A stretch of 64,000 bases of DNA. Source: an uncultured Brachyspira sp. (GTDB lineage: Bacteria > Spirochaetota > JAAYUW01). This document shows, one piece after another, positions 9,333-25,220 of this stretch. The stretch spans positions 102,836 through 166,835 of the forward strand of contig CAYVTU010000001.1 in NCBI GenBank assembly GCA_964454835.1, in the 5' to 3' direction. The notes beneath the pieces were generated by a model. The model saw only the letters and a list, made by a program, of their open reading frames with translations, was not told the origin of the DNA and ran no database searches. A program made the position numbers and the translations under genes. The number at the start of each line of letters is the position of its first letter. Positions within the stretch are counted from its first letter, which is position 1.

Positions 9333-9358
9333 TTTAATTTTAATAATTAAATAATTTA

Positions 9359-9386
9359 GGGAGCCTGTGAAAGGCTCCCTTTTTTT
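9359..9386 (+). terminator. Rho-independent terminator of the OMP gene
   Basis: GGGAGCC-tgtgaaa-GGCTCCC perfect 7-bp stem followed by a run of T residues. Confidence 0.85.
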
Positions 9387-9447
9387 ATTGATAATAAAAA
9401 AAATTTTGTTATTGATATTATATCTTAATTTTAAAAGGGAACGTAAT

Positions 9448-10044: not shown

Positions 10045-10276
10045 TTTATAGTAGAAACAATAATTAAATTATAAAAAAAAAACAAAACTATACAAAAAGA
10101 TTTAATTTCAGAAAAGATAATAAAATAAAAAAATCAATTTTATTTCACTTTTTCTTCATAATTTCTTCATAATTTATTGTTTTTTATTCAGTTGAAAAAA
10201 TAATACAACCTTGTATTTTATAAGAAAAAGCAACTAAAAGATTAATAAAAAATTATGTAAGTTAATAAGGCATGTT

Positions 10277-11596
10277 ATGAAGAAAAAAATATTTATAGTT
10301 TTTCTAATACTTATTTTATTTTGCTTCTTAGCACAAAATAAATTGGATGTTTACGATTTTGAAAAAGTAAGGCAACTTGCTTTAGAAAATAATTTAAGTT
10401 TAAAAAATTACGAAAATCAGATGAAACTTTCCGAGCTTTCATATAAACAAGCAGTTTCAAATCTATATTTTCCTTCTATATCTATTAATTCTTCAACAAA
10501 TATTCCTTTTAATCAGGATAAAAATAGCAATGCTTCAATAAACTTAAATATTTCCAAACCTATTTTTAATGGATTTACTTTACAGAAAGCAAAAGATTTA
10601 GCTTACTTAAACTTTCAATATAAAAAGAATATTTATGAAAGCAAAGTACTTGAGACAAAATATCTAGCATTTCAATATTACTACACATATCTTGTAAAGC
10701 TGCTTCAATACAATCTTTATAATGAAATATTAAAAATTGATACAAAAAGACTTAATGAATATGAAACAAAATATAAACTTGGTCTTATCACTGAGCTTGA
10801 CTATATTTCTCTAAAATTAACATTTTCTAAAGTAGAAATATCTTTCAAAAATGCTGAAAATGAAAAAGATCTTGCATATCTAACGCTAAAAAGCTTTCTT
10901 AATTTGAATAATGATTTTGCTATTTTAGAGCAGCAAAATTTCGATAAGATAGATTTTAATACATTGTTTAATAAAAAATCTACTGAAACAACTAATCTCC
11001 AAGCTGAAAATTATAAAGTCGAAACTTTTATTAATGATGCAAAAAAATATGATAGTACATATATCTCTGCTTTTTATTCTTATTTACAGGCACAAATTAA
11101 CTTAAAGTATTATATCGCATCACTTTTTCCTTCTTTATCATCTTCACTTGGTTTATCATATTCAGGTTTTTTTCAAGATGGACAATTTAACGATTCTGAA
11201 CCATCACTTTCAATATCTTTATCAATATCGATTGATTTGGATTCACTTATTCCTGGTTCATCAAAGAGTATTGAAAAAAAGGTATTGGAAAAGGAGGTTG
11301 AAAATACAAAATTAAATCTTGAAAAAGCGGAAAAAGAGCTTGTTTTAAATCTTGAAACAAAACTTAAAAATTTAATTTTAGGTTTAAAAAATAAAGAAAA
11401 TGCTTTAAATACATATGAATACGCAAATAAAGGGTATAAGCTAGCAACTGATGCATTTAATCTTGGGCAGATTTCTGTAAGTACTTTTTCTTCCTGGGAA
11501 GAAGATTATATAAATGCCAAAATTTCTCTTTATTCTGCGATATTAAATTATCAACTTTCAATTGAATCTTTATTGATGATGATAGGAAAGAATTAA
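10277..11596 (+). CDS. TolC-family outer-membrane efflux protein
   Basis: Signal peptide, ~440 aa, two repeated coiled-coil halves typical of the OEP family. Directly upstream of an adaptor/ABC operon. Confidence 0.7.
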   Translation: MKKKIFIVFLILILFCFLAQNKLDVYDFEKVRQLALENNLSLKNYENQMKLSELSYKQAVSNLYFPSISINSSTNIPFNQDKNSNASINLNISKPIFNGFTLQKAKDLAYLNFQYKKNIYESKVLETKYLAFQYYYTYLVKLLQYNLYNEILKIDTKRLNEYETKYKLGLITELDYISLKLTFSKVEISFKNAENEKDLAYLTLKSFLNLNNDFAILEQQNFDKIDFNTLFNKKSTETTNLQAENYKVETFINDAKKYDSTYISAFYSYLQAQINLKYYIASLFPSLSSSLGLSYSGFFQDGQFNDSEPSLSISLSISIDLDSLIPGSSKSIEKKVLEKEVENTKLNLEKAEKELVLNLETKLKNLILGLKNKENALNTYEYANKGYKLATDAFNLGQISVSTFSSWEEDYINAKISLYSAILNYQLSIESLLMMIGKN

Positions 11597-11654: not shown

Positions 11655-12893
11655 ATGAAAAAAAGACTAAGAAACATTATTATTATTATTTTATTAATAG
11701 TATTAATATCATTTATAAGTTTTTATTTTATAAGTAAAAAACAAACTAAAGATCAAAAGAATATAGTTTTTACCACAGCAATAGTTCAAAAAGGGAATAT
11801 AATAAGTTCTGTAAGTGCTTCTGGTAAAATTGAACCAATAGATTCATATCCTGTTATGGCTTCTATCTCAGGTAAAATAGATAAAATATATGTTGATTAT
11901 AATTCAAAAGTAGTTAAAGGTCAAATTCTTGCGATAATAAAGCAGGATGATTATATTTATGCGTTAAAACAGGCCCAGTTATCTTACCAAGAAGCTCAGA
12001 TAACTCTTTCTCAAAAAGAGCTTGATTATAAGAATAATTTAGAGCTATTTAAAAAAGGTTTTGCAACAGAACAGACATTAAAACAATCAGAAAATAGTCT
12101 GAAACTTGCTCAGATTGCTCTTGAATCTTCTAAAATAACACTTGAAAAGGCAAAATCAAATTTAGAAAATACTATTTTACGCTCACCAATCGATGGGTTT
12201 GTTTTAGAAAGAAATGTGGATGAAGGTGATTTTATAAGTACAAATGTTTCGCAAAAGTCACTTTTTATTGTATGTTCAGATTTAAGTAGACTTAAAATAA
12301 CAGCATCTGTAGATGAATCAGATATTAGCACAATAAGGGAGGGACAGAAAGTCTCTTTTACAGTTTTAGCTTACGATACATTGATTTTTAATGGATTTGT
12401 AAAACAAATTAGATTAAATTCAAGCGAAAGTTCAAATGTAGTTACATATGTAGTTGTTATAGAAACAAAAAATATAGATAATAAGCTATTGCCTGGAATG
12501 ACAGCTTCTATTGAATTTTTAAATGAAACAAAAGAAGTCGCATTTTTAGTACCCCAAACAGCGATATCGCTTAAAGGAATAGCCTTGATGAAAACACTTG
12601 GCCCTTATAATTTAGAAGTAAAAAATTCTGATAATAATAATCAAAAAGACAACAGTTCAAAAAATTTTCAGAATTTTCAGGGTAAAAATTTTAATAATAT
12701 AAAACTAATATGGGTAATTGATGAAAATCGAAAATTAATCTATCCAATTCCAGTAAAGGTTGGAAATAGTGATGGCAAAATGGTCGAGGTTTTTTCAGAT
12801 AAACTAGCAGAAGGGATGAAGATAATATCAAGTCTAATAAATACTGGTAAAAATCAAAACTCGAATTTTGGTATGCCACCAATAAGGTTTTAA
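11655..12893 (+). CDS. Periplasmic adaptor (HlyD/MacA family) of the tripartite efflux pump
   Basis: N-terminal TM anchor, long coiled-coil, barrel-sandwich/beta-barrel hallmarks (e.g. LRSPIDGFV). Confidence 0.8.
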   Translation: MKKRLRNIIIIILLIVLISFISFYFISKKQTKDQKNIVFTTAIVQKGNIISSVSASGKIEPIDSYPVMASISGKIDKIYVDYNSKVVKGQILAIIKQDDYIYALKQAQLSYQEAQITLSQKELDYKNNLELFKKGFATEQTLKQSENSLKLAQIALESSKITLEKAKSNLENTILRSPIDGFVLERNVDEGDFISTNVSQKSLFIVCSDLSRLKITASVDESDISTIREGQKVSFTVLAYDTLIFNGFVKQIRLNSSESSNVVTYVVVIETKNIDNKLLPGMTASIEFLNETKEVAFLVPQTAISLKGIALMKTLGPYNLEVKNSDNNNQKDNSSKNFQNFQGKNFNNIKLIWVIDENRKLIYPIPVKVGNSDGKMVEVFSDKLAEGMKIISSLINTGKNQNSNFGMPPIRF

Positions 12894-12949
12894 ATATATT
12901 AAAATTGACCTTTAAGAAAAGAATAAATAAATTAAAAAATAGTAAAAAT

Positions 12950-13696
12950 ATGGAAAACTATAACAATTCATTAATAGAAGTTATTAATTTAACCAAAATA
13001 TATGGAAGCGAGGATTCTGCTGTTGTTGCTCTTGATAATGTGAATTTAAAAATTAAAAAAGGTGAATTCATAGCTATAATGGGAGCATCTGGCTCTGGTA
13101 AAAGTACATTTATGAATATAATAGGGACTTTGGATGTTCCAACTTCCGGACAATACCTTTTTAAAAATGTTGATGTTGCAAAGATGGATGATGATCAGAG
13201 GTCAGAAATTAGAAATATGCATATAGGATTTGTTTTTCAAAGTTTTAATCTTGTAAAGACACTAAATGCAGTTGAAAATGTGGAATTGCCTTTATTTTAT
13301 GTGAAAACGGAGTCAAAAACCAAAAATAAACTAAGCAATAGTGCTGAAAATTACAATATAAGGAGAAAGATGATAAAGCAAAAGGCTATATCAGCATTGA
13401 AAGAGGTCGGTCTTGGAAATAGATTATATAATAGGACTAATCAACTTTCAGGTGGTCAACAACAGAGAATAGCAATAGCAAGAGCTCTTATCAATGACCC
13501 CGATATAATTTTAGCAGATGAACCTACTGGTAACCTTGATTCTAAAACTTCAATTGAAATAATGCAAATTTTTCAAAATCTTCATGAAAGAGGTAAAACT
13601 ATTGTCTTAGTGACACATGAACATGATATAGCAGCTTATGCAAAAAAGATTGTAGAATTTAAAGATGGGAAAATAATAGATATAAGAGAAAATTAA
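12950..13696 (+). CDS. ABC transporter ATP-binding protein (MacB/LolD-like)
   Basis: Walker A GASGSGKST, signature LSGGQQQRIAIARAL, Walker B ILADEPTGNLD. Track start 12905 is TTG; the ATG at 12950 gives a typical N-terminus. Confidence 0.85.
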   Translation: MENYNNSLIEVINLTKIYGSEDSAVVALDNVNLKIKKGEFIAIMGASGSGKSTFMNIIGTLDVPTSGQYLFKNVDVAKMDDDQRSEIRNMHIGFVFQSFNLVKTLNAVENVELPLFYVKTESKTKNKLSNSAENYNIRRKMIKQKAISALKEVGLGNRLYNRTNQLSGGQQQRIAIARALINDPDIILADEPTGNLDSKTSIEIMQIFQNLHERGKTIVLVTHEHDIAAYAKKIVEFKDGKIIDIREN

Positions 13697-13790
13697 AAAT
13701 AAAAAATAAAATTTTCAATGTTGAAAAAATAGTGCAAAAAAGGTGGAATACAAGATTAGAAATTGATATTTAAAAAAGGGAGTTTTAAAA

Positions 13791-15008
13791 TTGAAAATTC
13801 AGGTACTTTTAGATTTTTCTATAAAATCACTTTTACATAGCAAGTTAAGAACATTTTTAACTATGCTTGGTATAATAATTGGTCTTGCTGCAATTGTAGT
13901 TATGGTAGCAATTGGACAGGGAGTAACAAAACAGGTGCATGATCAAATATCTTCTTTTGGAAATAATCTTTTAACGGTAATGCCTGCTCCTCCATCAAGT
14001 TCTGGTGCAAGACTCTCGACAAGTTCAGGAACCAGAATAACAGAAGATGATTACAATGCGATAAAACAGAGGGCAACCTATATTAACGCTGTTTCACCTT
14101 TAGTACAAAATAGAGTTCAGGTTATTACTTCTGGTGGAAATTGGAATACTATCGTCTATGGTGGAAGTACAGACTACCTTTCGATTAGAAATCTTGTGCT
14201 TGAAAATGGTAGAAACTTTACTATTAATGAAGAAAAAGCAAAGGCAAAGGTATGTATAGTTGGTAAAACTATTGTAGAAGAATTATTTGATGGGGTAGAC
14301 CCTATTGGAGCTGAAATTAGGGTAAATAAAATAAATTTAAAGATAATCGGTGTACTTAAAGAAAAAGGAACTAATTCATTTGGTATGGATCAGGATGATG
14401 TCATTATAGTTCCATACACAACTTTATTATATAGATTAAGTAGATTTAGATATATTCAACAGATAATCTGTTCTGCAAGAAGTGAAGAAGAAATAAATTT
14501 AGCAGTTGGTGAGCTTGAACAGATTATGAGAGCATCTCATAGACTTTCTGAAGGCGAAGAAAATAATTTTAGAATAATGAATCAGGCAGATGTTCTTGAA
14601 GCCTCGATGAATACTACCCGTACTTTAACCCTGTTTTTAGCAGTTGTTGCTGGTATATCTTTACTTGTCGGTGGTATTGGGATTATGAACATAATGCTTG
14701 TTTCTGTTGTCGAGCGAACAAAGGAAATTGGTCTAAGAAGAGCAATTGGCGCTAGAAAAGCAGATATTGAGCAACAGTTTTTAATCGAAGCATTAATATT
14801 ATGCCTACTTGGAGGATTAGCAGGCATAATATTAGGAGTATCAATAGTTGTAATTTTAAAATTTATCTCAACTTTACCATTAAAAATTTCTGTGAATTCA
14901 ATAATAATTGGCTTTATTGTTTCTTTTGCGGTTGGAGTTTTTTTTGGCTATTATCCTGCAAAAAAGGCTTCAGAAATGAATCCAATAGATGCACTAAGGT
15001 ATGAGTAA
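13791..15008 (+). CDS. ABC transporter permease, FtsX/MacB-like
   Basis: N-terminal TM helix, large periplasmic domain, C-terminal FtsX 4-TM domain. TTG start with GGGAG Shine-Dalgarno 8 nt upstream. Confidence 0.85.
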   Translation: MKIQVLLDFSIKSLLHSKLRTFLTMLGIIIGLAAIVVMVAIGQGVTKQVHDQISSFGNNLLTVMPAPPSSSGARLSTSSGTRITEDDYNAIKQRATYINAVSPLVQNRVQVITSGGNWNTIVYGGSTDYLSIRNLVLENGRNFTINEEKAKAKVCIVGKTIVEELFDGVDPIGAEIRVNKINLKIIGVLKEKGTNSFGMDQDDVIIVPYTTLLYRLSRFRYIQQIICSARSEEEINLAVGELEQIMRASHRLSEGEENNFRIMNQADVLEASMNTTRTLTLFLAVVAGISLLVGGIGIMNIMLVSVVERTKEIGLRRAIGARKADIEQQFLIEALILCLLGGLAGIILGVSIVVILKFISTLPLKISVNSIIIGFIVSFAVGVFFGYYPAKKASEMNPIDALRYE

Positions 15009-15037: not shown

Positions 15038-15877
15038 ATGTCAAATAAAAATTTAATTGTAAAATATTTAATCTTTTTGCTTTATTTGTTTATAATAGTT
15101 TTAACTTTTTCTTTTAGTAAGACTTTAGATAGCGAAAATGAATATGTTAGTTATCAACGAAAAATGTATTTTACTATCCAATCTTTTCAGTCTGAACAAT
15201 CCTTTTTACGATATCTTAATTTTATAAAAAAGTACAATATTACAGGTATAACTTTTTATGGTTTTCATAATAAGATTACTACCGATCCAAAGATTATTTT
15301 ATTAAGGCTAAGGCAGGAAATTTATAATCTTGAAATTTGTATTGCAGGGGAAAATTTTGAATTTTTTAATAATTTAGTTCAAAATCAAGAAATATTAGAT
15401 TTAATTGATGGTTTTCATATTGAATATGAATATTGGAATTATTATAAATATAAGAAAAAGGATAGAAATGATGCTTTCAATTTTTTTATATCAGAGTCCA
15501 GAAAGATAAAAGAATTGGCAATAAGTAAGAACAAGATGACAGAAGCCTATTTTGGCTGGTTTACAAATGAGGAATTTAATATATTTAAATCTTTTTTTGA
15601 CTTAATATTAATTCACGCCTATACAAAAAAAGAGGAAGATGTACCAAAATATATTTTTGAAAGACTTAATATAATTAAAAATTCCCAAATCCCTTTTTAT
15701 ATCCTTTGCTCAGCAGAAAAAGATTTTATGGAAGAAAGGATAAAACTTGATGGGATAAAAAAGATCGAGAAAAATATATTAGAAAATATAAGCTTCATAT
15801 TAAGCAAGGATTATATGAAAAATTTCAAAGGCTTTTATTGGTTTACAGGAGAATTAATAGAAAAAATTGTAAGATAG
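15038..15877 (+). CDS. Hypothetical membrane-anchored protein. Possibly a polysaccharide-modifying enzyme given its neighbours, but not demonstrable from sequence
   Basis: N-terminal TM anchor; no recognisable catalytic motif. Confidence 0.35.
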   Translation: MSNKNLIVKYLIFLLYLFIIVLTFSFSKTLDSENEYVSYQRKMYFTIQSFQSEQSFLRYLNFIKKYNITGITFYGFHNKITTDPKIILLRLRQEIYNLEICIAGENFEFFNNLVQNQEILDLIDGFHIEYEYWNYYKYKKKDRNDAFNFFISESRKIKELAISKNKMTEAYFGWFTNEEFNIFKSFFDLILIHAYTKKEEDVPKYIFERLNIIKNSQIPFYILCSAEKDFMEERIKLDGIKKIEKNILENISFILSKDYMKNFKGFYWFTGELIEKIVR

Positions 15878-15879
15878 AT

Positions 15880-18834
15880 TTATTTTGTTTTAAATCCTTT
15901 TCTTTTCATCATACCCCAGGAACTTTTACCTGTAATATAATTAAAAAATGCAATCAATCTTAGTATATTCATTATTTGTCTATAACCAAAGTTTTCTAAA
16001 AACCCAATTAATATTAAAATTATATCTTCCCACCAAGAAAAATAAATTACATTTTTTTCTGAAATTGCTAAAGAAATGATGGATATGGCTATGCCAAGTA
16101 AAATACTAGTGAAAAAAAGAAAAAGAAATAATGGAAAAGTAAAAATACCTAAAAATATTGCCAATATTGATAAGAAAAGTCCCAACACTTCATAAAAAGG
16201 TCCAAATGTTTCAAAAATAAGATAATAAGGAAGAGCAATCAACCCGACTCTACCATAGCTTTTATTAAAAATCATCTTTCTATGGTACAATAATATTTCT
16301 ATGAGACCTCTTTGCCATCTATCTCTTTGTTTACGAAGTATTTTAAAGGACTCTGGAACCTCTGTCCAACATGTAGCATTTATCGAATAATTGATCATTG
16401 CCTTTTCTTTTTTTTCTATCGAATTTCTTCTTAATCTAACTATAAGTTCCATGTCCTCGCCAACAGTATTTTGTTTTGATTTAGTTCGATAAGTCATATA
16501 TCCACCAATTTCAAGTACAGCTTTTCTGTGAAAAACTCCAAATGCACCTGAAATAATAAGTAAAGATTTAATAAATGACCACCCAAGTCTTCCAGTAAAG
16601 TAAGCCCTTAAATATTCCATAGTTTGAAATCTTGCTAGGATATTTTTACCAATTCCTATTTTTATTAAAGATCCATTTTCTACTGTACAACCATTTACCG
16701 GCATAATTTTACCACCAGTTGCTATAATCTTTTCATCACTTTCTATAATTGGAGAAATTGCATGTAAGAGAGCATCCTGTTCAAGAAGGCTATCTGCGTC
16801 AATGCCACAAATATATTCACAGTTCGCAATGTTGATTCCAGCATTAAGCGAATCTGCTTTACCACCATTAATTTTGTCTATTACAAAAAGATTTGAATGT
16901 ATCTTACTTTTATATACTCCGATAATAGGCGCAGTATCGATGTGTTGGCTCAGATGCATATATGGTATTCTTTCGAGTTCAAAGTTTTGTAGCAAAACAT
17001 TTAAAGTATTATCAGGTGAACCATCATTTATAACTATCACCTCAAAACTTGGATATTTTAAAGCTAAAAGACTACGCACATTTTGCACAATTGTCGCTTC
17101 TTCTCTGAATGCAGGTACTATAACAGAAATTGAGGGTAAAACACCTTTTTGAAAATAATTTAAATATGAGATAGAATCTTTTTGTCTATTTTGTTTCAAT
17201 ATTTCAGAATAGGCAAATATTAAAAAAAGAAATGAAATAAAATTTAAAGTTAATGCATAAAATCCAAAGAATTTTATAAAAAAAGATATAAATGATTTAA
17301 ACCAGGGTAGAAATGGGAAAAAACTTATTTTATGCCTTATGGAAAATATAAAAATTGGAGTTAAGAAGATAGCTGTAGCTAGAATTAGTAAAAAGGGTTT
17401 ATCTTTTTTAGAAGCAGTAGGTGCTTTTTGTGTTTCAATTCTTTTCTTTGGGGGAAAATTATGTCTTTGACAAATATCATCATTAAGCGAAGATATGAAT
17501 TCTTCAAAGATTTTAATTCTTTTTTCATAATCAGGTTTTTTAAAATTTAAAATATCAAGAGTATGAACAACTTTTAATATTAGAATTTCTTCAATATTAC
17601 TATCTATATTATTGTTTAAGTAAGAAATAAGATTGTAGATAAATCCATTTTGTACGCAATATTCTATTAAATCAATTATTTTCTGGTCTAAAAACCAGTC
17701 TTTTCTTTCTAAAAAGTAGAATAGGTAACTTTCTAGAATTGGTGCTATTTTGCCTTTGATTGAAGGCTCAATAGTCTTATAAAAGACTTCAAGTAATTTA
17801 TCTTTAAATTCATCTTTGTTTTTAATTACATTTTCTAATGCGGAAATGGCGAATAACTCATTATCTGGTTCTATCAGAAATTGTAATAATCTATCAAAAT
17901 TATCCAAATTATGAACTCTACCCAGTGCTCTAATGGCAAAACTTCTTATCTTTGTATTTCTGTTTCTTAAAAAAAATTGAGAATCAAGCATTGTAGGCAC
18001 AATATGATAAATTACATTTGCAGCCTCAGAAGACAAATCTTCATCGCTTGACATAAGTGATTCAACAAGTATTTTTTCTAATGAAGAAGAAGGAAAATAT
18101 CTACAAAGCTGAATTCCTATTATTGTTTCGGCTTTATTGTATGGATATCTTGAAGATATGACATTAGCGGTAATATCTGAATGCTCTTGCAAGATTGCAA
18201 TATATTGTGAAAATCTAACCATATTTCCATTTTCGTACTCTTTTGCAGCAGAATCCAAAATAAGAGGTATTAAATCAAAACTTTGAGCAAAAAGAAGAGA
18301 TTCACATATTTTAAATCTTATTGAACTCGATTTTTCTATTCCTAAAAATCCAGAAAGGATTTGCACTCCTTCAAATCCATAAAATCTTAAAGCAAAAGCA
18401 GCATTTGCCCTTTTAATTTTACTTTTTGATTTTATGTTGTGAATATAGTGCTTTAAAAGTTTTGACTTTCTTTTAATAAAGAATTCTATATTTTTCAAAT
18501 CTAATGGTAAGATAATTCTTTCACTACAAATATTTAAGGCAGAAATTAAAAATGTTTCTGAATATTTAGTAAAAATATTTATTTCTTTCTTTTTCTTTTT
18601 TTTATAATTCTGAATATTTGTTTCGTCTATTACAATAAGCTCTTCTTCTCTTTGCTCTTTATTTATGTATTCATAAGAAAGATTTGAAATTTTTTTTACA
18701 AGAAGATTAATAATTTTAGCTTTTTTATTTTCTCTATGTTTTATAAGAAAAAGCGAAATAATGATCAAAAAAATAAATATAGATAGTAAGTATATTAACA
18801 TATATAAAGTATTAATTGAATCTACTGTCTTCAT
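15880..18834 (-). CDS. Processive family-2 glycosyltransferase (PgaC/IcaA/BcsA-like) fused to an N-terminal TM helix plus HEAT (PBS-lyase-type) repeat domain
   Basis: GT2 motifs DGSPDNT, GGKADSLN, DADS, GED and the processive QRDRWQRG (QxxRW). TM helices flank the catalytic domain. N-terminal repeats match the HEAT/PBS-lyase pattern (e.g. AAFALRFYGFEGVQIL). Confidence 0.7.
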   Translation of the reverse strand: MKTVDSINTLYMLIYLLSIFIFLIIISLFLIKHRENKKAKIINLLVKKISNLSYEYINKEQREEELIVIDETNIQNYKKKKKKEINIFTKYSETFLISALNICSERIILPLDLKNIEFFIKRKSKLLKHYIHNIKSKSKIKRANAAFALRFYGFEGVQILSGFLGIEKSSSIRFKICESLLFAQSFDLIPLILDSAAKEYENGNMVRFSQYIAILQEHSDITANVISSRYPYNKAETIIGIQLCRYFPSSSLEKILVESLMSSDEDLSSEAANVIYHIVPTMLDSQFFLRNRNTKIRSFAIRALGRVHNLDNFDRLLQFLIEPDNELFAISALENVIKNKDEFKDKLLEVFYKTIEPSIKGKIAPILESYLFYFLERKDWFLDQKIIDLIEYCVQNGFIYNLISYLNNNIDSNIEEILILKVVHTLDILNFKKPDYEKRIKIFEEFISSLNDDICQRHNFPPKKRIETQKAPTASKKDKPFLLILATAIFLTPIFIFSIRHKISFFPFLPWFKSFISFFIKFFGFYALTLNFISFLFLIFAYSEILKQNRQKDSISYLNYFQKGVLPSISVIVPAFREEATIVQNVRSLLALKYPSFEVIVINDGSPDNTLNVLLQNFELERIPYMHLSQHIDTAPIIGVYKSKIHSNLFVIDKINGGKADSLNAGINIANCEYICGIDADSLLEQDALLHAISPIIESDEKIIATGGKIMPVNGCTVENGSLIKIGIGKNILARFQTMEYLRAYFTGRLGWSFIKSLLIISGAFGVFHRKAVLEIGGYMTYRTKSKQNTVGEDMELIVRLRRNSIEKKEKAMINYSINATCWTEVPESFKILRKQRDRWQRGLIEILLYHRKMIFNKSYGRVGLIALPYYLIFETFGPFYEVLGLFLSILAIFLGIFTFPLFLFLFFTSILLGIAISIISLAISEKNVIYFSWWEDIILILIGFLENFGYRQIMNILRLIAFFNYITGKSSWGMMKRKGFKTK

Positions 18835-18881
18835 TTTTTTTAATTAAAACTATTTGGTAGATAATTTTTTTATCTTTATTT

Positions 18882-19829
18882 TTAAATATTTGAACTAATA
18901 AAAATTCTAATTATGGAAAGCAATTCGTTAATATAATAAGGCTTTTTAATAAAATAAGTTATTCCTAAAAGAGAAGCAGTTTTCAATAAATCATCATTTT
19001 TTTGGGTACTTAAAATGATTAAAGGGATATTTAAATCACTTTCTATTAGTTTTTGTCTTAAATCAAATCCGCCAAAACCAGGTGCAGCAAGTTCTGAAAT
19101 AATACAAATAGGATGGGATGTTTTAAGTTTATCATAGGCAAGTTTACCATCTCTAAACCATACACAATTAATATTATTTTGCTTTAAAATATCTATCACT
19201 ATTGTAGCATTGAATGGATCTGGTTCAATAAGGAAGATTTCAGGTGTTTCATAGATTTCTTTAAAATTCACTAGAATGACTTTTGAATTTAAATCAAATT
19301 TCGCTTCATAAAGTAGTTTTTCAAATTTATTTATAAAATGCTCTTTTAATGTCTTATTATCATCTTTATTTAAAACATAGTTTTGAACTGAAAAGACAAA
19401 TATATTTGATTCTAAAATGGAAGATAATATAGATTGATTTAATTCATAAATAAATAAGTTTGACTTAGCCTTTATTTCAGAAATAGAGTCCGCAAATGAA
19501 AACAATATTATCCCTGTGCTATAAAAAAATAATGGTGAAAAAGGTTTTATGGTGTTTGAAGTTATTGAGCTAATTTCATTTTTGAATTCATCAAATTTAA
19601 TTTTATCTTTCATCTTATTAATAAATGAAATATATAGAAGATAAGCATCAATTTCATATTTTGTAAGAAGATTGATCAGTTGCTCGAGATAAGTAAAATT
19701 GTCTAAAAATGATATAAATTTATTTTTGTCAAATGATACAAAAATTTTATCAAGTTCAAAAGAGATAATGTTTTCTTTCAGAATCTGATTTTCTTTTTCA
19801 AGTTGAAAGATATTTTTTTGTTTTTTCAT
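18882..19829 (-). CDS. Protein with C-terminal receiver (REC) domain carrying Glu at the phospho-acceptor position; N-terminal ~190 aa unknown
   Basis: REC topology conserved: acidic pocket EPD, ICIISELAAPGFGGFDL (Glu where D57 is expected), IPLIILST (T87 position), YFIKKP (K109). Confidence 0.5.
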   Translation of the reverse strand: MKKQKNIFQLEKENQILKENIISFELDKIFVSFDKNKFISFLDNFTYLEQLINLLTKYEIDAYLLYISFINKMKDKIKFDEFKNEISSITSNTIKPFSPLFFYSTGIILFSFADSISEIKAKSNLFIYELNQSILSSILESNIFVFSVQNYVLNKDDNKTLKEHFINKFEKLLYEAKFDLNSKVILVNFKEIYETPEIFLIEPDPFNATIVIDILKQNNINCVWFRDGKLAYDKLKTSHPICIISELAAPGFGGFDLRQKLIESDLNIPLIILSTQKNDDLLKTASLLGITYFIKKPYYINELLSIIRIFISSNI

Positions 19830-20551
19830 AGTTTTACGACGAATGAAAAACCTATATCAGAAACTCCTGCTTTGTTTAAAATGTACGGCTGCCAGTAGGC
19901 ACCGATTGAAAATATTGGGAAACTAAATTTTATTCCAAGAATAAGAGAAAGATTAAAAAGGCTTTGCTCAATGGCAAAACTAGCTCCTAAATCGATTCCA
20001 AAAAATGGGAAAAAAGAAAGAAAAGATTTGACCCATAGAGCATAAGATATTCCCTTCTCACTTTCATATCCTATAGCAGAATTAACTGAAAAATTGTAAC
20101 CATTGGAAAAAGTATAAATTGAGTAAATGTAACTAATAGAAGTAAATGAATCTATGTTAAATTTAAATATCTGCCTGAAAGCCAGATACCATTCATCCTT
20201 TTCAAAATTAACACCTAGAAGTATTTCATGTTTTGTAATATTATCGATAAAATAAAAACCATACATAAAATCAATATACCAATTTTTAGGAAAAATAAAT
20301 GTTCCTCCCAGCATTACTTTATAACCGCTATCAGCTTCATAGTAATATGAATATCCAAACAATGCAGATAAAGAGAAAAATTTAGTTATAGGAAAAGAAA
20401 TTGTCTGCTCTAATCTCCATTGAGATATACTAAAAATATTTAAATTCATATCAAAAGATGTAGAAATCCAGATCTTAGAATTTGCTAAAACAGATGTTGA
20501 GAAAAATATTATACCTAAAAGTAATAAAATTAATAATTTTTGCATCTTCAT
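19826..20551 (-). CDS. Small outer-membrane beta-barrel protein, putative first gene of the GT2 operon
   Basis: Signal peptide MKMQKLLILLLLGIIFFSTSVLA; alternating aromatic beta-strand pattern; 241 aa. Confidence 0.45.
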   Translation of the reverse strand: MKMQKLLILLLLGIIFFSTSVLANSKIWISTSFDMNLNIFSISQWRLEQTISFPITKFFSLSALFGYSYYYEADSGYKVMLGGTFIFPKNWYIDFMYGFYFIDNITKHEILLGVNFEKDEWYLAFRQIFKFNIDSFTSISYIYSIYTFSNGYNFSVNSAIGYESEKGISYALWVKSFLSFFPFFGIDLGASFAIEQSLFNLSLILGIKFSFPIFSIGAYWQPYILNKAGVSDIGFSFVVKL

Positions 20552-20620
20552 GGCTATAATGTAATAGAAATAAGAGAATTTGTCAAATTTATGAAATTCT
20601 TTGACATTTGTTAAGAAAAA

Positions 20621-20693
20621 TCGGAAAGAGGAGATTTGAACTCCTGACCCCCTGGTCCCGAACCAGGTGCGCTGCCAACTGCGCTACTTTCCG
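20621..20693 (-). tRNA. tRNA-Pro (anticodon CGG)
   Basis: Cloverleaf folds by hand: acceptor CGGAAAG/CTTTCCG with the C1-G72 pair typical of tRNA-Pro, D-stem GCGC/GCGC, anticodon stem CCTGG/CCAGG, loop TTCGGGA, T-loop TTCAAAT, discriminator A. CCA not encoded. Confidence 0.85.
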
Positions 20694-20765
20694 ACATTAA
20701 ATTTTTTATAAGTCTACTTTTTAATAGAAAATATATAAAAAAATTATCAAATTAAGTATATTAAA

Positions 20766-22773: not shown

Positions 22774-23949
22774 TTATTCGAAATTTAAGTTTAAATTCCC
22801 CATATTTACATCAAGATTAATATTTAATAAATTTTTTGCATCAGATTTATTTTTATTTGAACTCAGCTCAAAACCACCGGAAAATTTATGGATTTCTCCA
22901 TTGTACTTGATTGATATATTACCAGCATTTAATTTTGATTTTACATAGAAATCTTTGCAGTTTTTAACTGTAAAAGAAGAATCTGTCATATTAGCTTTAT
23001 AGGTAAAAATAGATGGAAAACTCAAAAATCTTTCGCAGTTGACAATATATTTTCCAGCATTTTCTTTTATGTTTATTTCAGAAGAAATGTTAAAATCATA
23101 TGCATCTATAAGAGAATCAGAAGCATTAAAGTCAAAAACAAGATTTTTTGATTTGATTAGTTTAGATTTTATTTGAGATTTTGAGGCATTTATTTTAATA
23201 GATAAAGTTTCCTCAAAAATCATCAATTCTGAATTTATATAACTATCTGAAGCCGAAATTTCTATTTGACCATTTAAAGCTTTTAATTTTAAAAGATTTG
23301 CGTCTATACTTGAAGCATTTTGACTTAATTTAAAAATTTTTGAAACATCAAGATTATCTGCCCAAATCTGAATATTAGAAATATTTATGTCAAAATCCAG
23401 GTTTTCGTATTTTGTTGGTAAAATCATAAATACAAATAAGTAAATATCATCATTAATTTTATAATTTTTTGAAAAACTTTCATCTAAAATACCTATTTTA
23501 TTATTTATAATTTGAACAGGATTTTTTATGGAAAGGTCATTTGTATAAAGTTTATATGAAATTTTTGGGGTAGCTTTGTCAGAAAAGATACAGATTCCTT
23601 TTGTTAGATTGATATTGATTTTGTTTATATTATTAAGTGAATTAACTTGATATTCAGTTTTATCTTTTAATTTAAACTGAGTATTGTTGGTAATAAATTC
23701 ATCTGCTTGATTGAAGAACTTGTTTTCGATTGAAGTTAAATTTGATAAATCTGAGATATCTGTTTTAAATTTCAGTTTATCATTAAATAGATTTTCACCA
23801 TTTGAAAAAAGATTTTTATTTATAATAACTGATGGAAATTTTACTCCACTTTTACTGTCCAAATAGGCTTTGACTACAAATAAAAAGATTAAAGAAATTA
23901 TTAGAATTGAAACAAGGAAAATTCCAAGAAGTTTTGTGCTATTTTTCAT
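22774..23949 (-). CDS. Membrane-anchored hypothetical protein, possibly DUF4097/LiaG-like beta-repeat
   Basis: N-terminal TM helix, Asn/Ser-rich beta-repeat body. Last gene of the GntR–ABC operon. Confidence 0.35.
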   Translation of the reverse strand: MKNSTKLLGIFLVSILIISLIFLFVVKAYLDSKSGVKFPSVIINKNLFSNGENLFNDKLKFKTDISDLSNLTSIENKFFNQADEFITNNTQFKLKDKTEYQVNSLNNINKININLTKGICIFSDKATPKISYKLYTNDLSIKNPVQIINNKIGILDESFSKNYKINDDIYLFVFMILPTKYENLDFDINISNIQIWADNLDVSKIFKLSQNASSIDANLLKLKALNGQIEISASDSYINSELMIFEETLSIKINASKSQIKSKLIKSKNLVFDFNASDSLIDAYDFNISSEINIKENAGKYIVNCERFLSFPSIFTYKANMTDSSFTVKNCKDFYVKSKLNAGNISIKYNGEIHKFSGGFELSSNKNKSDAKNLLNINLDVNMGNLNLNFE

Positions 23950-23984
23950 TTAGTTCTCCTGTATTTTATTTTTTAATTTTAATA

Positions 23985-24362
23985 TTAAATATTTTCTATA
24001 TGCTTATTATTGCATTTTTCAAGTAAATTGACAAATTCATTGAAAGAAATATTTAAAATATTAAGTTCTTTTAATATCTTTGGGATATCGTTTTTAATAA
24101 ACAGATTTTTTTTATATTCAAGAACTTTAGCATAGGCATCCTTATCTAAGAAATAACCCTTACCTCTCAAATTGTAGATAATCCCTATATTTTCACATTC
24201 AGTGTAGGCTTTCGCTATTGTATTTGGATTAACTTCAAGCTCTGATGCCAACTCTCTTATGCTTGGTATCCTTGAATCCTGCTGCCACTTTTTTTTAAGA
24301 ATAAGTTCAAAGATAAGTTCAATTATCTGCAGATATATTGGTTTTGATTCATCAAATTTCAT
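23985..24362 (-). CDS. GntR-family (YtrA-like) transcriptional regulator
   Basis: wHTH IPSIRELASELEVNPNTIAKAY; small size typical of YtrA-subfamily GntR preceding ABC genes. Confidence 0.7.
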   Translation of the reverse strand: MKFDESKPIYLQIIELIFELILKKKWQQDSRIPSIRELASELEVNPNTIAKAYTECENIGIIYNLRGKGYFLDKDAYAKVLEYKKNLFIKNDIPKILKELNILNISFNEFVNLLEKCNNKHIENI

Positions 24363-24365
24363 ATT

Positions 24366-25175
24366 TTATTCTCCTTTAACATCGTATTCTACGATGCGAA
24401 GGTATGAAAGAAAATAAAAGAAAATAGCAAGTGCTATTTTAATTATTTCACTCAAAATTTTATAAGTTTTGAAATTAATACCAAATTTTTCCAAGATCGA
24501 ATAAATATTAATATTAAAATTATAATAGCTATTTCGAAAGCTAAAATAAGTAATTATAAAAATAATAGTGGAATATATAAAACTAATGGCAAGAATTGTC
24601 AGAATTGTCTTAAAAAAACTATTTTTTTTGAAATAAGATGAACCAAGAATAAAAATTGAACATAGAAAAAAATAGGTAGAAATAATTTGATAATTAAACA
24701 ATTTTGATATCTCTGAAATATTTATTGTTGTTTTGGTAAAAAAAGATATAAATATACTATTAATTACAAATGCAATAGCCGTTGTTGCAATGCTTACTAT
24801 TAGGTAAAAAAATACATAGTATAACCATATAGAAGCAAACTTCTCAAACTGAGTTTTAGGAAGCATGTAAAAAGATATGGCTTTTTCTTCTGAATGAATG
24901 TGTTTCAAACTATTAGAGGAAATAATAATGCCAATAATTAAAGAAACAATATAAAAAAGAATTATGTTCATAGAACTTGTTATTCTTGAATAAAATGGGA
25001 AAAGAATGGCAGATATAATTTTGAATAAAACAAGAAATATAAATACAATATTAACAATTATTGGCGCAAGAAAAATTTGCTTTCCATAAAGATTAAAATC
25101 AAGTTTTAATAATGAAAAAAAGTTTTCCATCTTGTTTAAAAATGGGCTTTTAATTTTGTATATGTTGTCAGACAT
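24366..25175 (-). CDS. ABC-2-type transporter membrane protein
   Basis: Six predicted TM helices. Immediately follows the ABC ATPase. Confidence 0.5.
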   Translation of the reverse strand: MSDNIYKIKSPFLNKMENFFSLLKLDFNLYGKQIFLAPIIVNIVFIFLVLFKIISAILFPFYSRITSSMNIILFYIVSLIIGIIISSNSLKHIHSEEKAISFYMLPKTQFEKFASIWLYYVFFYLIVSIATTAIAFVINSIFISFFTKTTINISEISKLFNYQIISTYFFLCSIFILGSSYFKKNSFFKTILTILAISFIYSTIIFIITYFSFRNSYYNFNINIYSILEKFGINFKTYKILSEIIKIALAIFFYFLSYLRIVEYDVKGE

Positions 25176-25220
25176 TTTATACTCCTGTTTTTGATATTTT
25201 AATAAATTAAAATTTTCATT

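What the first reader, a model, noticed from the sequence alone, without database searches (positions are those of the whole stretch)
15880..20551. Undescribed exopolysaccharide synthase module: outer-membrane barrel – receiver(D→E) protein – HEAT-repeat::processive GT2 fusion
The 984-aa protein has every hallmark of a processive membrane-embedded beta-glycosyltransferase (DGSPD, GGKADSLN, DADS, GED, QRDRWQRG; compare PgaC/IcaA/NodC/BcsA). It carries a ~450-aa N-terminal extension made of a TM helix plus PBS-lyase-type HEAT repeats, an architecture I do not recognise from characterised synthases. BcsA uses a C-terminal PilZ domain and PgaC uses PgaD. Immediately upstream, overlapping by 4 bp, is a protein whose C-terminal receiver domain has Glu at the phospho-acceptor position (ICIISELAAPG) plus an unknown N-domain. 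Before that is a 241-aa signal-peptide beta-barrel. Together these look like export porin + regulatory/activator subunit + synthase. A Glu at the acceptor position often mimics a constitutively phosphorylated receiver, suggesting a protein–protein activator rather than a two-component output. The convergent anchored protein at 15038..15877 could be an associated modifying enzyme.
Basis: partly seen in the sequence, partly recalled or inferred. Interest (0 to 1): 0.65.

Follow-up and report, generated by a model that had tools for sequence, protein, structure and literature searches.

The report
Receiver-gated HEAT-fused polysaccharide synthase operon
This spirochaete (Exilispira) operon encodes a membrane sugar-polymer synthase fused to a HEAT-repeat docking domain, a signalling-type partner whose phosphorylation site is permanently replaced by glutamate, and an outer-membrane barrel; it is the fused form of a receiver + HEAT + synthase gene trio found from Bacillus to haloarchaea, for which I found no functional study.

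Summary
The ORFs, motifs and coordinates are real. One detail is wrong: the 4-bp ATGA overlap joins the barrel and receiver genes, while receiver and synthase are 47 bp apart.

The 984-aa protein has an N-terminal TM helix, cytoplasmic PBS-type HEAT repeats, two TM helices, and an intact processive GT2 core (DGS, DADS, GEDME, QRDRW). It scores best against PgaC/IcaA but far below that family's cutoff.

The fusion is not a frameshift. About 27 cluster representatives share the architecture. In 40 of 54 loci with an unfused relative, the HEAT part is a separate TM-anchored gene directly upstream of the GT2.

The gene before the HEAT module nearly always ends in a C-terminal receiver. Its acceptor is Glu in 20 of 23 fused-type loci and Asp in 23 of 28 split-type loci.

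The window's 315-aa protein is a decayed GGDEF domain plus a Glu pseudo-receiver. Its orthologues are ODP(di-iron sensor)–degenerate GGDEF–REC proteins.

The 241-aa protein models as a 14-strand barrel whose best PDB hit is the PgaA porin. It and the convergent 279-aa protein occur only in Exilispira, but move with the synthase between genomic contexts.

Best reading: a synthase-dependent exopolysaccharide system gated by receiver–HEAT contact. This is a new variant of a known kind. I found no paper describing it.

The parts
19826..20551 (-). BB241: 241-aa predicted outer-membrane beta-barrel with an N-terminal signal-like helix. [quoted passage not shown]
   Evidence: ORF. AF2 model has pLDDT 80.3, helix 2-17 plus 14 beta strands. 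The best Foldseek PDB hit is the PgaA polysaccharide porin 4y25 (E 4e-5, TMq 0.61); all other hits are outer-membrane barrels. No Pfam or NCBIfam hit. No relation to YaiO was detected. Homologues occur only in the Exilispira lineage.
18882..19829 (-). REC315: cytoplasmic 315-aa regulator made of a degenerate GGDEF-like domain plus a C-terminal pseudo-receiver.
   Evidence: ORF. No TM segment. The proteins at the same position in related loci are ODP-GGDEF-REC or GGDEF-REC.
19260..19829 (-). REC315 residues 1-190: coiled-coil stalk plus a decayed GGDEF (nucleotidyl-cyclase palm) domain, with no GG(D/E)EF motif and no RxxD site.
   Evidence: It aligns colinearly with the GGDEF region of partner proteins. 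hhalign gives P = 4e-4 over 129 columns. The AF2 topology is beta-alpha-beta-beta-alpha-beta-alpha-beta. Foldseek hits soluble adenylyl cyclase 5iv4 and the DosC GGDEF domain 4zve, TMt 0.58. Pfam GGDEF does not hit it.
18891..19247 (-). REC315 residues 195-313: receiver domain with Glu246 (GAA, 19092-19094) in place of the phospho-acceptor Asp. The Thr87-like Ser and the Lys109 equivalent are kept.
   Evidence: Pfam Response_reg 51.7 bits. Column mapping to CheY gives the pattern E-P-E-S-K for positions D12, D13, D57, T87, K109.
15880..18834 (-). GT984: 984-aa inner-membrane synthase, a fusion of the TM-anchored HEAT subunit with a processive GT2.
   Evidence: One uninterrupted ORF. The same architecture occurs in about 27 representative clusters and 28 genome loci.
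18742..18798 (-). TM1 (residues 13-31), followed by a stretch of net charge +6. This places the HEAT domain in the cytoplasm.
   Evidence: Hydropathy and charge count. Split-form HEAT proteins have the same N-terminal TM in 34 of 40 cases. The relative P0006 has a cytoplasmic receiver fused directly to the HEAT domain without TM1.
17425..18567 (-). Cytoplasmic PBS-lyase-type HEAT-repeat solenoid (about residues 90-470), homologous to the separate HEAT protein of split-form loci.
   Evidence: An HMM built from 44 split-form HEAT proteins hits residues 9-69 and 126-329 with E = 6e-10. Pfam HEAT_2 hits 48 of 49 relatives. A PDB profile search hits alphaRep, DOHH, CpcE/F and YibA.
17200..17394 (-). 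TM2-TM3 hairpin (about residues 481-545) that returns the chain to the cytoplasm before the GT domain.
   Evidence: Hydropathy scan.
16300..17142 (-). GT2 catalytic domain (residues 565-845) with DGS (604), GGKADSLN (657), DADS (679), ISGAFG (761), GEDME (792), CWTEVPE (822) and QRDRW (836).
   Evidence: Pfam GT2 families. The motifs are invariant across 27 family members. Positions.
15883..16299 (-). C-terminal membrane region (residues 846-984), the presumed translocation channel helices, ending in the conserved GWGxMxRKGF tail.
   Evidence: Hydropathy peak at 902-920 and the conserved hydrophobic block in the family alignment.
15038..15877 (+). P279: convergent 279-aa N-terminally anchored protein of unknown fold. 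It is linked to the synthase in two different genomic contexts.
   Evidence: ORF. Homologues sit downstream of the synthase in L005, L006 and L001-L003. No significant Pfam, NCBIfam or PDB match. No homologue in the 80 non-Exilispira loci.
20558..20586 (-). Best sigma-70-like match (TTGACA-17-TACATT) in the 68-bp gap between tRNA-Pro and the barrel gene; a candidate operon promoter.
   Evidence: The total number of promoter-like sites in the region is not above the shuffle expectation, so this is only a candidate.

Best explanation
The three co-directional genes form the Exilispira version of a synthase-dependent exopolysaccharide secretion system, probably together with the convergent 279-aa gene.

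GT984 polymerises a nucleotide sugar at a cytoplasmic GT2 site and threads the chain through its own C-terminal membrane helices, as PgaC and BcsA do. The sugar is most plausibly a HexNAc such as UDP-GlcNAc.

Its N-terminal half is a TM-anchored cytoplasmic HEAT solenoid. In most other phyla this is a separate subunit encoded just upstream of the GT2. I propose that the solenoid is the docking platform for a receiver domain.

In split-form systems the partner ends in a phosphorylatable receiver fed by a neighbouring histidine kinase or Hpt relay. In the fused-form lineage (Spirochaetota, Bacillota, Mollicutes) the acceptor Asp has become Glu. The partner there is a degenerate GGDEF + pseudo-receiver, usually headed by an ODP di-iron O2/Fe(II)-sensor domain.

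In Exilispira the sensor is lost and the GGDEF domain has decayed further. REC315 therefore probably acts as a phosphorylation-independent, more or less constitutive activating subunit that binds the HEAT domain.

BB241, translationally coupled to REC315, would be the outer-membrane exit pore. It would take the place of the TPR-YaiO barrel found in other diderms.

Shown: domain identities, motif integrity, fused/split homology, gene order, the acceptor-residue pattern, and the barrel fold. Inferred: REC-HEAT contact, activation, polymer chemistry, and the pore role.
For: GT2 core. It is intact and invariant across the family. Its nearest curated model is PgaC/IcaA, and Chitin_synth_2 hits occur in 12 relatives.

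Fused/split homology. An exhaustive search with the N-terminal 495 aa found only 50 representative proteins, about 27 of them HEAT + GT2 of 920-1000 aa whose GT2 halves are 44-54% identical to the window. An HMM of split HEAT proteins hits the window N-domain at E = 6e-10. The HEAT gene lies directly upstream of the GT2 in 40 of 54 split loci, mostly with a 4-bp or 1-bp overlap.

Receiver linkage. A protein ending in a C-terminal receiver lies directly upstream in 23 of 28 fused loci, and directly upstream of the HEAT gene in 25 of the 40 split loci that have one. The acceptor is E 20 / D 3 in fused loci and D 23 / E 5 in split loci. Independent gene fusions join the receiver to the synthase: P0006 is REC-HEAT-GT2 with a Glu acceptor, and P0028 is HEAT-GT2-REC with a Gln acceptor.

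Signalling neighbours. HK, Hpt and RR genes flank split loci in Mesorhizobium and Bacillus infantis.

Topology. TM1 is followed by a +6 charge cluster.

Export. TPR-YaiO barrels occur in 29 diderm loci. The BB241 model is a 14-strand barrel with PgaA as top hit.

Linkage of all four genes. The four-gene block is kept in two unrelated genomic contexts.

Substrate hint. UDP-GlcNAc supply genes (glmS, a sugar-phosphate nucleotidyltransferase) sit next to the haloarchaeal pair.
Against: There is no experiment, and no structural model of the complex. REC-HEAT binding rests only on gene order and fusions.

The REC::HEAT::GT2 fusion P0006 sits in a locus where the barrel is truncated and two neighbours carry in-frame stops. 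It could therefore be a by-product of decay.

Many split-form partners contain an active GGEEF with an I-site, so c-di-GMP rather than receiver docking may be the real signal.

BB241 and P279 have no homologues outside Exilispira, and BB241 has no TPR domain. Other diderm spirochaete loci were not shown to carry any barrel.

The polymer is unknown. The PgaC score is far below its cutoff (122.6 against 422), no deacetylase is present, and glmS linkage was seen in only 2 of about 87 loci.

Glu at the acceptor does not always mimic phosphorylation (general knowledge of response regulators).
Confidence: 0.55

Rival explanations
1. The system is controlled locally by c-di-GMP. The C-terminal receiver only tethers a diguanylate cyclase (or its degenerate descendant) to the HEAT platform, and the real activator is c-di-GMP bound by the synthase/HEAT module or by the degenerate GGDEF. 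This would resemble DgcJ-NfrB, PelD, PssE or YdaK.
For: Split-form partners in Bacillus infantis, B. fengqiuensis, Rossellomorea, L031, L055, L044 and L065 carry GGEEF or GGDEF together with an RxxD I-site. The fused-form partners keep a recognisable GGDEF domain, with Pfam hits of 20-73 bits. Precedents are the locally c-di-GMP-controlled NfrB (PMC8669469) and the Listeria PssE receptor (PMC4125290).
Against: In all 21 fused-form partners aligned, the GG(D/E)EF motif is degenerate and there is no RxxD at the I-site position. REC315 has decayed beyond Pfam detection. Many split loci have only a single-domain receiver and no GGDEF. No PilZ or MshEN domain, and no GGDEF motif, occurs anywhere in the 64-kb window.
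Confidence: 0.2
2. GT984 is not an exopolysaccharide exporter. It would instead make a short oligosaccharide, a glycolipid or another cell-envelope glycan. BB241 and P279 would be unrelated neighbours (a general porin and an anchored protein).
For: BB241 and P279 are lineage-specific with no family assignment. The system also occurs in wall-less Mollicutes and in archaea, which have no outer membrane. NodC-type enzymes share the same motifs but make oligomers (general knowledge; NodC model 39.5 bits).
Against: The QRDRW motif and a conserved multi-helix C-terminal membrane block are typical of processive, translocating synthases. The barrel gene overlaps REC315 by ATGA. The four genes travel together between two genomic contexts. 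29 diderm relatives have a TPR + barrel gene in the operon, as in the Pga, Bcs, Alg and Pel systems.
Confidence: 0.15
3. The locus is a decaying or silent remnant. The Glu acceptor, the ruined GGDEF and the lost ODP sensor would be stages of regulatory degeneration rather than a working constitutive activator.
For: In the 57%-identical relative the barrel lacks its N-terminus, and the receiver and P279 homologues carry in-frame TAG and TAA codons. This is seen in four samples. L005 shows a split synthase and a truncated barrel. The REC315 N-domain is far more degenerate than its orthologues.
Against: In the window all four ORFs are intact, despite 26% GC where random stop codons are frequent. 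REC315 homologues are 70-87% identical, with 100-plus invariant positions that include the N-domain. The catalytic motifs are invariant. The Glu acceptor is conserved across three phyla together with the Ser/Thr and Lys switch residues, which argues for selection.
Confidence: 0.1

Closest known systems
PgaABCD / IcaADBC poly-beta-1,6-GlcNAc system (PgaC/IcaA synthase, PgaA TPR-porin)
   Same: PgaC/IcaA is the best-scoring curated model for the GT2 core. Both are membrane-embedded processive GT2 enzymes with D, DxD, (G/T)ED and QxxRW motifs. Both have an outer-membrane barrel in the operon, and the top PDB structural hit for BB241 is the PgaA barrel.
   Different: The score is 122.6 bits against a cutoff of 422. 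There is no PgaD/IcaD partner, no PgaB/IcaB deacetylase, and no TPR domain on the barrel. Regulation is by a HEAT + receiver module rather than c-di-GMP at a PgaC-PgaD interface (the Pga mechanism is cited from general knowledge).
BcsA cellulose synthase with C-terminal PilZ
   Same: Synthase-dependent logic: a processive GT2 carrying an attached cytoplasmic regulatory domain.
   Different: The CelA model scores only 32.9 bits against 699. There is no PilZ domain. The regulatory domain is N-terminal, made of HEAT repeats, and anchored by its own TM helix.
NfrB-DgcJ (E. coli N4 receptor polysaccharide; PMC8669469)
   Same: A GT2 synthase controlled post-translationally by a signalling protein that is thought to act locally on it, with an outer-membrane partner in the operon.
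   Different: NfrB uses a C-terminal c-di-GMP-binding domain and an active cyclase. Here the GGDEF is dead, the receiver is the conserved element, and HEAT is the candidate receptor.
EpsW-EpsZ of Myxococcus xanthus (PMC12802240)
   Same: A receiver-domain protein that activates polysaccharide synthesis by direct contact with a biosynthetic enzyme rather than through transcription.
   Different: That is a Wzx/Wzy pathway with a phosphoglycosyl transferase target and a phosphorylatable single-domain receiver. There is no HEAT module and no homology to this system.
Degenerate-GGDEF exopolysaccharide regulators: PelD, PssE (Listeria, PMC4125290), YdaK (B. subtilis)
   Same: A catalytically dead GGDEF protein encoded beside, and needed for, an EPS glycosyltransferase.
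   Different: Those proteins bind c-di-GMP at a retained RxxD I-site. The partners here lack RxxD and always end in a receiver domain.
Natural pseudo-receivers with Glu at the acceptor (plant PRR/TOC1 clock proteins; engineered D-to-E response regulators)
   Same: A receiver fold in which Asp is replaced by Glu and which works through protein-protein contacts without phosphotransfer (own knowledge).
   Different: The context and partners are unrelated. Whether Glu is activating here has not been tested.
Xanthomonas xagABCD biofilm glycosyltransferase operon (PMC3609779, PMC3826837)
   Same: A genetically characterised operon whose first gene (xagA) and PgaC-like GT2 (xagB) are both needed for biofilm. 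The gene order would fit HEAT-GT2-barrel.
   Different: Membership could not be tested. This is a lead only.
Clostridium perfringens NELoc-2 genes CP4_0467/0468 (PMC2879425)
   Same: A 377-aa 'HEAT repeat domain protein' immediately followed by a 466-aa membrane GT2 annotated as 'chitin synthase'. The sizes and order match the split form.
   Different: This is annotation only. The sequences were not compared here, and no function is known.

Membership tests
Processive membrane-embedded GT2 synthases (BcsA/PgaC/NodC/HAS/chitin synthase class) | GT-A domain with the D, DxD, (T/G)ED and Q(R/Q)xRW motifs | tested here: met
   DGS 604, DADS 679, GEDME 792 and QRDRW 836 are present and invariant in 27 relatives. 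Pfam GT2 families score 43-76 bits.
Processive membrane-embedded GT2 synthases (BcsA/PgaC/NodC/HAS/chitin synthase class) | TM helices flanking the catalytic domain that form the translocation channel | tested here: inconclusive
   A hydropathy scan finds TM segments at 481-499 and 515-533, and a C-terminal hydrophobic block at 902-920. No structure of the synthase was predicted.
PgaC/IcaA PNAG synthase (TIGR03937) | Whole-protein score at or above the curated cutoff (422.3 bits) | tested here: not met
   122.6 bits.
PgaC/IcaA PNAG synthase (TIGR03937) | Operon partners: PgaD/IcaD small membrane protein, PgaB/IcaB CE4 deacetylase, PgaA TPR-porin | tested here: not met
   No Polysacc_deac_1 hit and no TPR hit among the four cluster proteins. 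Only a bare barrel is present, whose structural similarity to PgaA is generic.
BcsA cellulose synthase | CelA model score at or above 699 bits and a C-terminal PilZ domain | tested here: not met
   32.9 bits and no PilZ hit.
Response-regulator receiver domain (PF00072) | Receiver fold and HMM match | tested here: met
   51.7 bits against a cutoff of 30.2, residues 198-307. Foldseek hits many receiver structures.
Response-regulator receiver domain (PF00072) | Phospho-acceptor Asp (CheY D57 position) | tested here: not met
   Glu246. This makes it a pseudo-receiver. The T87-like Ser and the K109 equivalent are kept.
GGDEF diguanylate cyclase domain (PF00990) | HMM match to the domain | tested here: inconclusive
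   No Pfam hit for REC315. However, the proteins at the same position in related loci do hit, at 20-73 bits. REC315 aligns colinearly with them, hhalign gives P = 4e-4, and the AF2 model (pLDDT 65) matches GGDEF/cyclase palm folds weakly.
GGDEF diguanylate cyclase domain (PF00990) | GG(D/E)EF active site and RxxD inhibitory/receptor site | tested here: not met
   Both are absent in REC315 and in all 21 aligned fused-form partners.
YaiO family outer-membrane beta-barrel (PF19413 / TIGR04390) | HMM or profile match to the YaiO domain | tested here: not met
   No Pfam or NCBIfam hit. An HMM of the TPR-YaiO neighbours finds nothing in the window. hhalign probability is 1%.
PBS-lyase-type HEAT repeats (PF13646 HEAT_2) | HMM match at or above the gathering score | tested here: inconclusive
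   The window protein alone scores 23.1 bits against 27.7. 48 of 49 relatives match, and the family profile hits alphaRep, DOHH and CpcE/F with E down to 1e-109.
REC - HEAT - GT2 triad (uncharacterised; defined here) | A GT2 core at least 40% identical with the DKxNGGKAD and IISGAFG motifs; a TM-anchored HEAT module N-terminal to it or encoded just upstream; and a preceding gene that ends in a receiver domain | tested here: met
   All three elements are present in the window. The pattern is seen in 23 of 28 fused and 25 of 40 split loci and in RefSeq records of Mesorhizobium, Emticicia and Halosolutus.
Xanthomonas XagABCD | Sequence homology of XagA to the HEAT module and of XagB to this GT2 clade | not testable with these tools

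The most novel reading that the evidence does not exclude
Receiver + TM-anchored HEAT solenoid + PgaC-like GT2 would be a previously unrecognised class of polysaccharide synthase spanning many phyla of Bacteria and also Archaea. Activity would be switched post-translationally by a two-component receiver docking on the HEAT subunit, a phosphorylation-gated alternative to c-di-GMP control. In anaerobic Spirochaetota, Bacillota and Mollicutes the switch would have been rewired: HEAT and GT2 fused, the acceptor Asp fixed as Glu, and control handed to an ODP di-iron O2/Fe(II) sensor. That would amount to an oxygen-triggered matrix response. Exilispira would be the stripped-down end point, with a lineage-specific non-YaiO export barrel.
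Probability: 0.35. Interest if true: 0.8.

Novelty: new variant of a known kind. Interest (0 to 1): 0.6.

Why it matters
Synthase-dependent exopolysaccharide systems (cellulose, PNAG, alginate, Pel) are the backbone of bacterial biofilms. All well-studied examples are switched by c-di-GMP.

The locus examined here points to a different control logic. A receiver domain, phosphorylatable in most phyla and permanently Glu-substituted in this lineage, is paired with a dedicated HEAT-repeat subunit.

The module is widespread. At least 596 of the 600 pattern matches in about 186,000 species genomes encode a relative, and it occurs in gut Bacteroides, rhizobial symbiosis plasmids, Bacillus, possibly a Clostridium perfringens disease-associated locus, and haloarchaea. 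I nevertheless found no functional study of it.

If the mechanism holds, it would directly link two-component signalling, and in anaerobes an O2/Fe(II) sensor, to matrix production. It would also give a tractable test bed in cultivable hosts such as Mesorhizobium ciceri or Bacillus infantis.

Tried and rejected
(1) Frameshift or mis-assembly origin of the HEAT::GT2 ORF. Rejected: the same fused architecture appears in about 27 representative clusters and 28 genome loci.

(2) BB241 as a divergent YaiO barrel. Rejected at the sequence level: the HMM finds no hit, hhalign gives 1% probability, and jackhmmer finds only Exilispira homologues.

(3) An alternative genetic code in the 57% relative as the explanation for its in-frame stops. 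Rejected: TAG and TAA also end normal genes there.

(4) P279 as a recognisable hydrolase or deacetylase. Pfam, NCBIfam, a PDB profile search and jackhmmer over all loci gave nothing.

(5) The roughly 1000-aa conserved neighbour of 25 related loci, and the ODP sensor domain. Neither is present anywhere in the window.

(6) A sequence search of PDB for a solved close relative of the synthase. Only the first GT-A strand-helix matched, and no BcsA, HAS or chitin-synthase hit appeared.

(7) Literature searches on HEAT + GT2 + GGDEF/receiver, YaiO + glycosyltransferase, ODP + GGDEF, synthase-dependent + HEAT, and Exilispira. No description of the module was found. The original ODP paper could not be read.

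(9) glmS linkage as a general indicator of substrate. It was found in only 2 loci, so it is only a weak hint.

Full report
OBSERVATION. The window is AT-rich (about 26% GC). Its closest named relatives are Exilispira sp. MAG proteins. The four ORFs exist exactly as reported: BB241 at 19826..20551(-), REC315 at 18882..19829(-), GT984 at 15880..18834(-), and the convergent P279 at 15038..15877(+). One detail is wrong. The 4-bp ATGA overlap joins BB241 and REC315. REC315 and GT984 are 47 bp apart and in different frames. A tRNA-Pro at 20620..20694 separates the cluster from uvrB. The best promoter-like site lies in the 68-bp gap before BB241, and no terminator-like site separates the three genes.

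THE SYNTHASE. Pfam finds GT2 families in residues 570-909 and a sub-threshold HEAT_2 hit. NCBIfam ranks PgaC/IcaA (122.6 bits) above XrtG-associated GT (83), NodC (39.5) and CelA (32.9). All are far below their curated cutoffs, so the protein is PgaC-like but belongs to none of these families. The motifs DGS604, GGKADSLN657, DADS679, GEDME792 and QRDRW836 are present and invariant in a 27-member alignment. Hydropathy places TM1 at residues 13-31, followed by a net +6 charge, then a TM hairpin at about 481-545 and a hydrophobic C-terminal block. Both the HEAT domain and the GT domain therefore face the cytoplasm. PDB sequence searches find no solved close relative of the membrane synthase. The N-domain profile strongly matches PBS-lyase-type HEAT repeats.

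FUSED AND SPLIT FORMS. An exhaustive HMMER search of 1.84 billion representatives with the N-terminal 495 residues gave only 50 hits. About 27 of these are 920-1000-aa proteins with the same TM-HEAT-GT2 layout, and their GT2 halves are 44-54% identical to the window. The best 80 fall into two groups. The fused form occurs in Spirochaetota (Treponemataceae, Rectinemataceae, Sphaerochaeta), Bacillota and Mollicutes. A roughly 470-aa stand-alone GT2 that is 40-46% identical occurs in Gemmatimonadota, Acidobacteriota, Nitrospirota, Bacillus, Alphaproteobacteria and others. In 40 of 54 stand-alone loci the gene directly upstream is a 340-410-aa HEAT-repeat protein, mostly overlapping the GT2 gene by 4 or 1 bp, and 34 of those 40 have an N-terminal TM helix. 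An HMM of these proteins hits the window's N-domain, including TM1, at E = 6e-10. GT984 is therefore a gene fusion of a conserved two-subunit synthase. It is neither a frameshift artefact nor a one-off. RefSeq records show the same pair, annotated only generically, in Mesorhizobium ciceri, Emticicia, Bacteroides finegoldii, Deinococcus radiophilus and the haloarchaeon Halosolutus. A HEAT (377 aa) + 'chitin synthase' GT2 (466 aa) pair listed in Clostridium perfringens NELoc-2 looks like another instance, but I did not compare the sequences (PMC2879425).

THE RECEIVER PARTNER. In 23 of 28 fused-form loci the gene immediately upstream, often overlapping by 4 bp, ends in a receiver domain homologous to that of REC315. 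Most of the remaining loci lack upstream sequence or are themselves receiver fusions. Ten of these partner proteins were scanned. Eight are ODP (di-iron metallo-beta-lactamase-fold sensor, PF19583) - GGDEF - REC proteins of 546-1079 aa. Two are GGDEF-REC proteins of 324-333 aa, the same size as REC315. Alignment shows that the GG(D/E)EF motif is degenerate and the RxxD I-site absent in all of them. REC315's own N-domain gets no Pfam hit. It does align colinearly with these GGDEF domains, gives hhalign P = 4e-4, adopts the expected stalk + beta-alpha-beta-beta-alpha-beta topology in an AF2 model (pLDDT 65), and finds adenylyl-cyclase and DosC GGDEF structures among weak Foldseek hits. I conclude with moderate confidence that it is a decayed GGDEF domain.

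THE D-TO-E PATTERN. I mapped every receiver that directly precedes the HEAT module onto CheY. The acceptor is Glu in 20 and Asp in 3 fused-form loci, and Asp in 23 and Glu in 5 split-form loci. The Ser/Thr87 and Lys109 equivalents are retained throughout (examples). In every case the receiver is the last domain of its protein. Split-form partners include single-domain receivers and REC-GGEEF-REC proteins with intact active and I-sites. Histidine kinases and Hpt proteins lie nearby. Two independent fusions tie the receiver physically to the synthase. P0006 (57% identical, seen on 10 contigs) is degenerate GGDEF-REC(E)-HEAT-GT2 without TM1. P0028 is HEAT-GT2-REC with Gln at the acceptor.

THE BARREL AND P279. 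BB241 models as a signal helix plus 14 antiparallel strands (pLDDT 80). The top Foldseek PDB hit is the PgaA polysaccharide porin 4y25 (E 4e-5, TMq 0.61), followed only by other outer-membrane barrels. It has no detectable relationship to the TPR-YaiO barrels found in 29 diderm relatives, and its homologues are confined to the Exilispira lineage. P279 is likewise lineage-specific and unassignable. Both genes nevertheless stay with the synthase in two unrelated genomic contexts. One is uvrB/tRNA ... MacB in the window, L005 and L006. The other is DUF1576 ... CLC channel in L001-L004, whose flanking genes have no counterpart near the window cluster. That is the main argument for treating all four genes as one functional unit.

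MECHANISM. Three things are shown: an intact processive PgaC-like GT2, a homologous HEAT module that is either fused or encoded as a separate upstream gene, and an almost obligatory preceding C-terminal receiver whose acceptor chemistry tracks the fused or split state. The rest is inferred. I propose that the receiver docks on the cytoplasmic HEAT solenoid and gates polymerisation. In split systems phosphorylation would drive this. In the fused lineage Glu would replace phospho-Asp and control would pass to the upstream sensor (ODP, an O2/Fe(II) sensor according to the work cited as ref. 41 in PMC10653840). Exilispira has lost that sensor, so REC315 would behave as a constitutive or otherwise-regulated activating subunit. 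BB241 would be the exit pore. A GlcNAc-type polymer is suggested by the PgaC/NodC/chitin-synthase affinities and by glmS plus a nucleotidyltransferase next to the haloarchaeal pair. The glmS linkage is rare, so this is only a hint.

RIVALS. (a) Local c-di-GMP control. This is plausible for split loci with active GGEEF partners. It is weakened here by the loss of both the active site and the I-site and by loci that have only single-domain receivers. (b) A non-exported glycan, with unrelated neighbours. The processive motifs, translational coupling, block synteny and TPR-barrel genes in relatives argue against it. (c) A decaying locus. This is suggested by the disrupted accessory genes in L001-L004 and L005. 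All four window ORFs are intact, and REC315 and BB241 are strongly conserved.

COMPARISON AND NOVELTY. The system works like the Pga, Bcs and Nfr synthase-dependent systems, but it fails the membership tests for PgaC, BcsA, YaiO and active GGDEF. The closest mechanistic precedent for a receiver acting directly on a polysaccharide enzyme is EpsW-EpsZ (PMC12802240), which is not homologous. Seven full-text searches aimed at this module, and the papers followed up from them, gave no description of a REC-HEAT-GT2 module. Xanthomonas xagABCD could be a characterised relative, but I could not test that. I rate the locus a new variant of a known kind.

Noticed in passing
L001 9160-10711 and 13578-14459 (same in L002-L004): In the 57%-identical relative, the barrel homologue lacks its N-terminal 57 or so residues and signal peptide. 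The receiver N-part carries an in-frame TAG and the P279 homologue an in-frame TAA, while the 1185-aa REC::HEAT::GT2 ORF is intact. The same sequence was recovered from four independent samples. TAG and TAA are also used as ordinary stops there, so this is not a recoding signal.
   Followed up: partly
L007 9253-12420, L011 9106-12243, L061 8377-11631, L008 6631-9930 and others: A conserved protein of about 900-1100 aa with no Pfam or NCBIfam hit lies next to the HEAT/GT2 genes in 25 of 82 related loci, both monoderm and diderm. Gemmatimonadota versions carry TPR repeats. It looks like a further unknown subunit of the system. There is no homologue in the window.
   Followed up: partly
L013 4279-6324, L007 4206-6230, L011 4132-6135, L009 3354-6593 and others: ODP di-iron sensor domain (PF19583) fused to a catalytically dead GGDEF and a Glu-acceptor receiver, always directly upstream of the HEAT::GT2 gene, in anaerobic Spirochaetota, Bacillota and Mollicutes. 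This suggests O2/Fe(II)-responsive control of polysaccharide synthesis.
   Followed up: partly
L089 (Halosolutus gelatinilyticus plasmid NZ_CP095493.1) 4468-10517: The response regulator - HEAT - GT2 trio also occurs in a haloarchaeon, followed by a sugar-phosphate nucleotidyltransferase and glmS (UDP-GlcNAc supply). This is either cross-domain distribution or horizontal transfer.
   Followed up: partly
L088 (Emticicia oligotrophica pEMTOL05) 8550-10517: An LTA-synthase-family (alkaline-phosphatase superfamily) gene follows the GT2 and YaiO barrel. By analogy with BcsG, this hints at phospho-substituent modification of the polymer in some lineages.
   Followed up: no
window 20620-20694 (-): tRNA-Pro (CGG) lies between uvrB and the barrel gene and marks the upstream boundary of the operon. 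Together with the cluster's presence in a different context in a relative, this could indicate that the block is mobile.
   Followed up: partly
window 11655-15008 (+): A MacA-like periplasmic adaptor, an ABC ATPase and a MacB/FtsX permease lie convergent to the synthase cluster. L005 and L006 additionally have an OEP (TolC-like) gene. The synteny with the synthase block is conserved within Exilispira but absent in L001, so a functional link is doubtful.
   Followed up: partly
window 32720-33036: A 174-bp tandem repeat, 1.8 copies at 88% identity (score 515), was not examined further.
   Followed up: no
window 22774-26078 (-): A GntR-family regulator, a multi-TM protein and an ABC ATPase, plus a 391-aa N-terminally anchored Asn/Ser-rich protein, lie upstream of uvrB. 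The order is conserved in L005 and L006. Unrelated to the finding as far as can be seen.
   Followed up: no
L005 9796-12742 and 8212-8700 (GCA_964581895.1): In this 80%-identical MAG the synthase is called as 86 + 913 aa and the barrel as 162 aa. This could be frameshifts or assembly errors in an AT-rich genome, and it means gene calls for this family in MAGs are unreliable.
   Followed up: no
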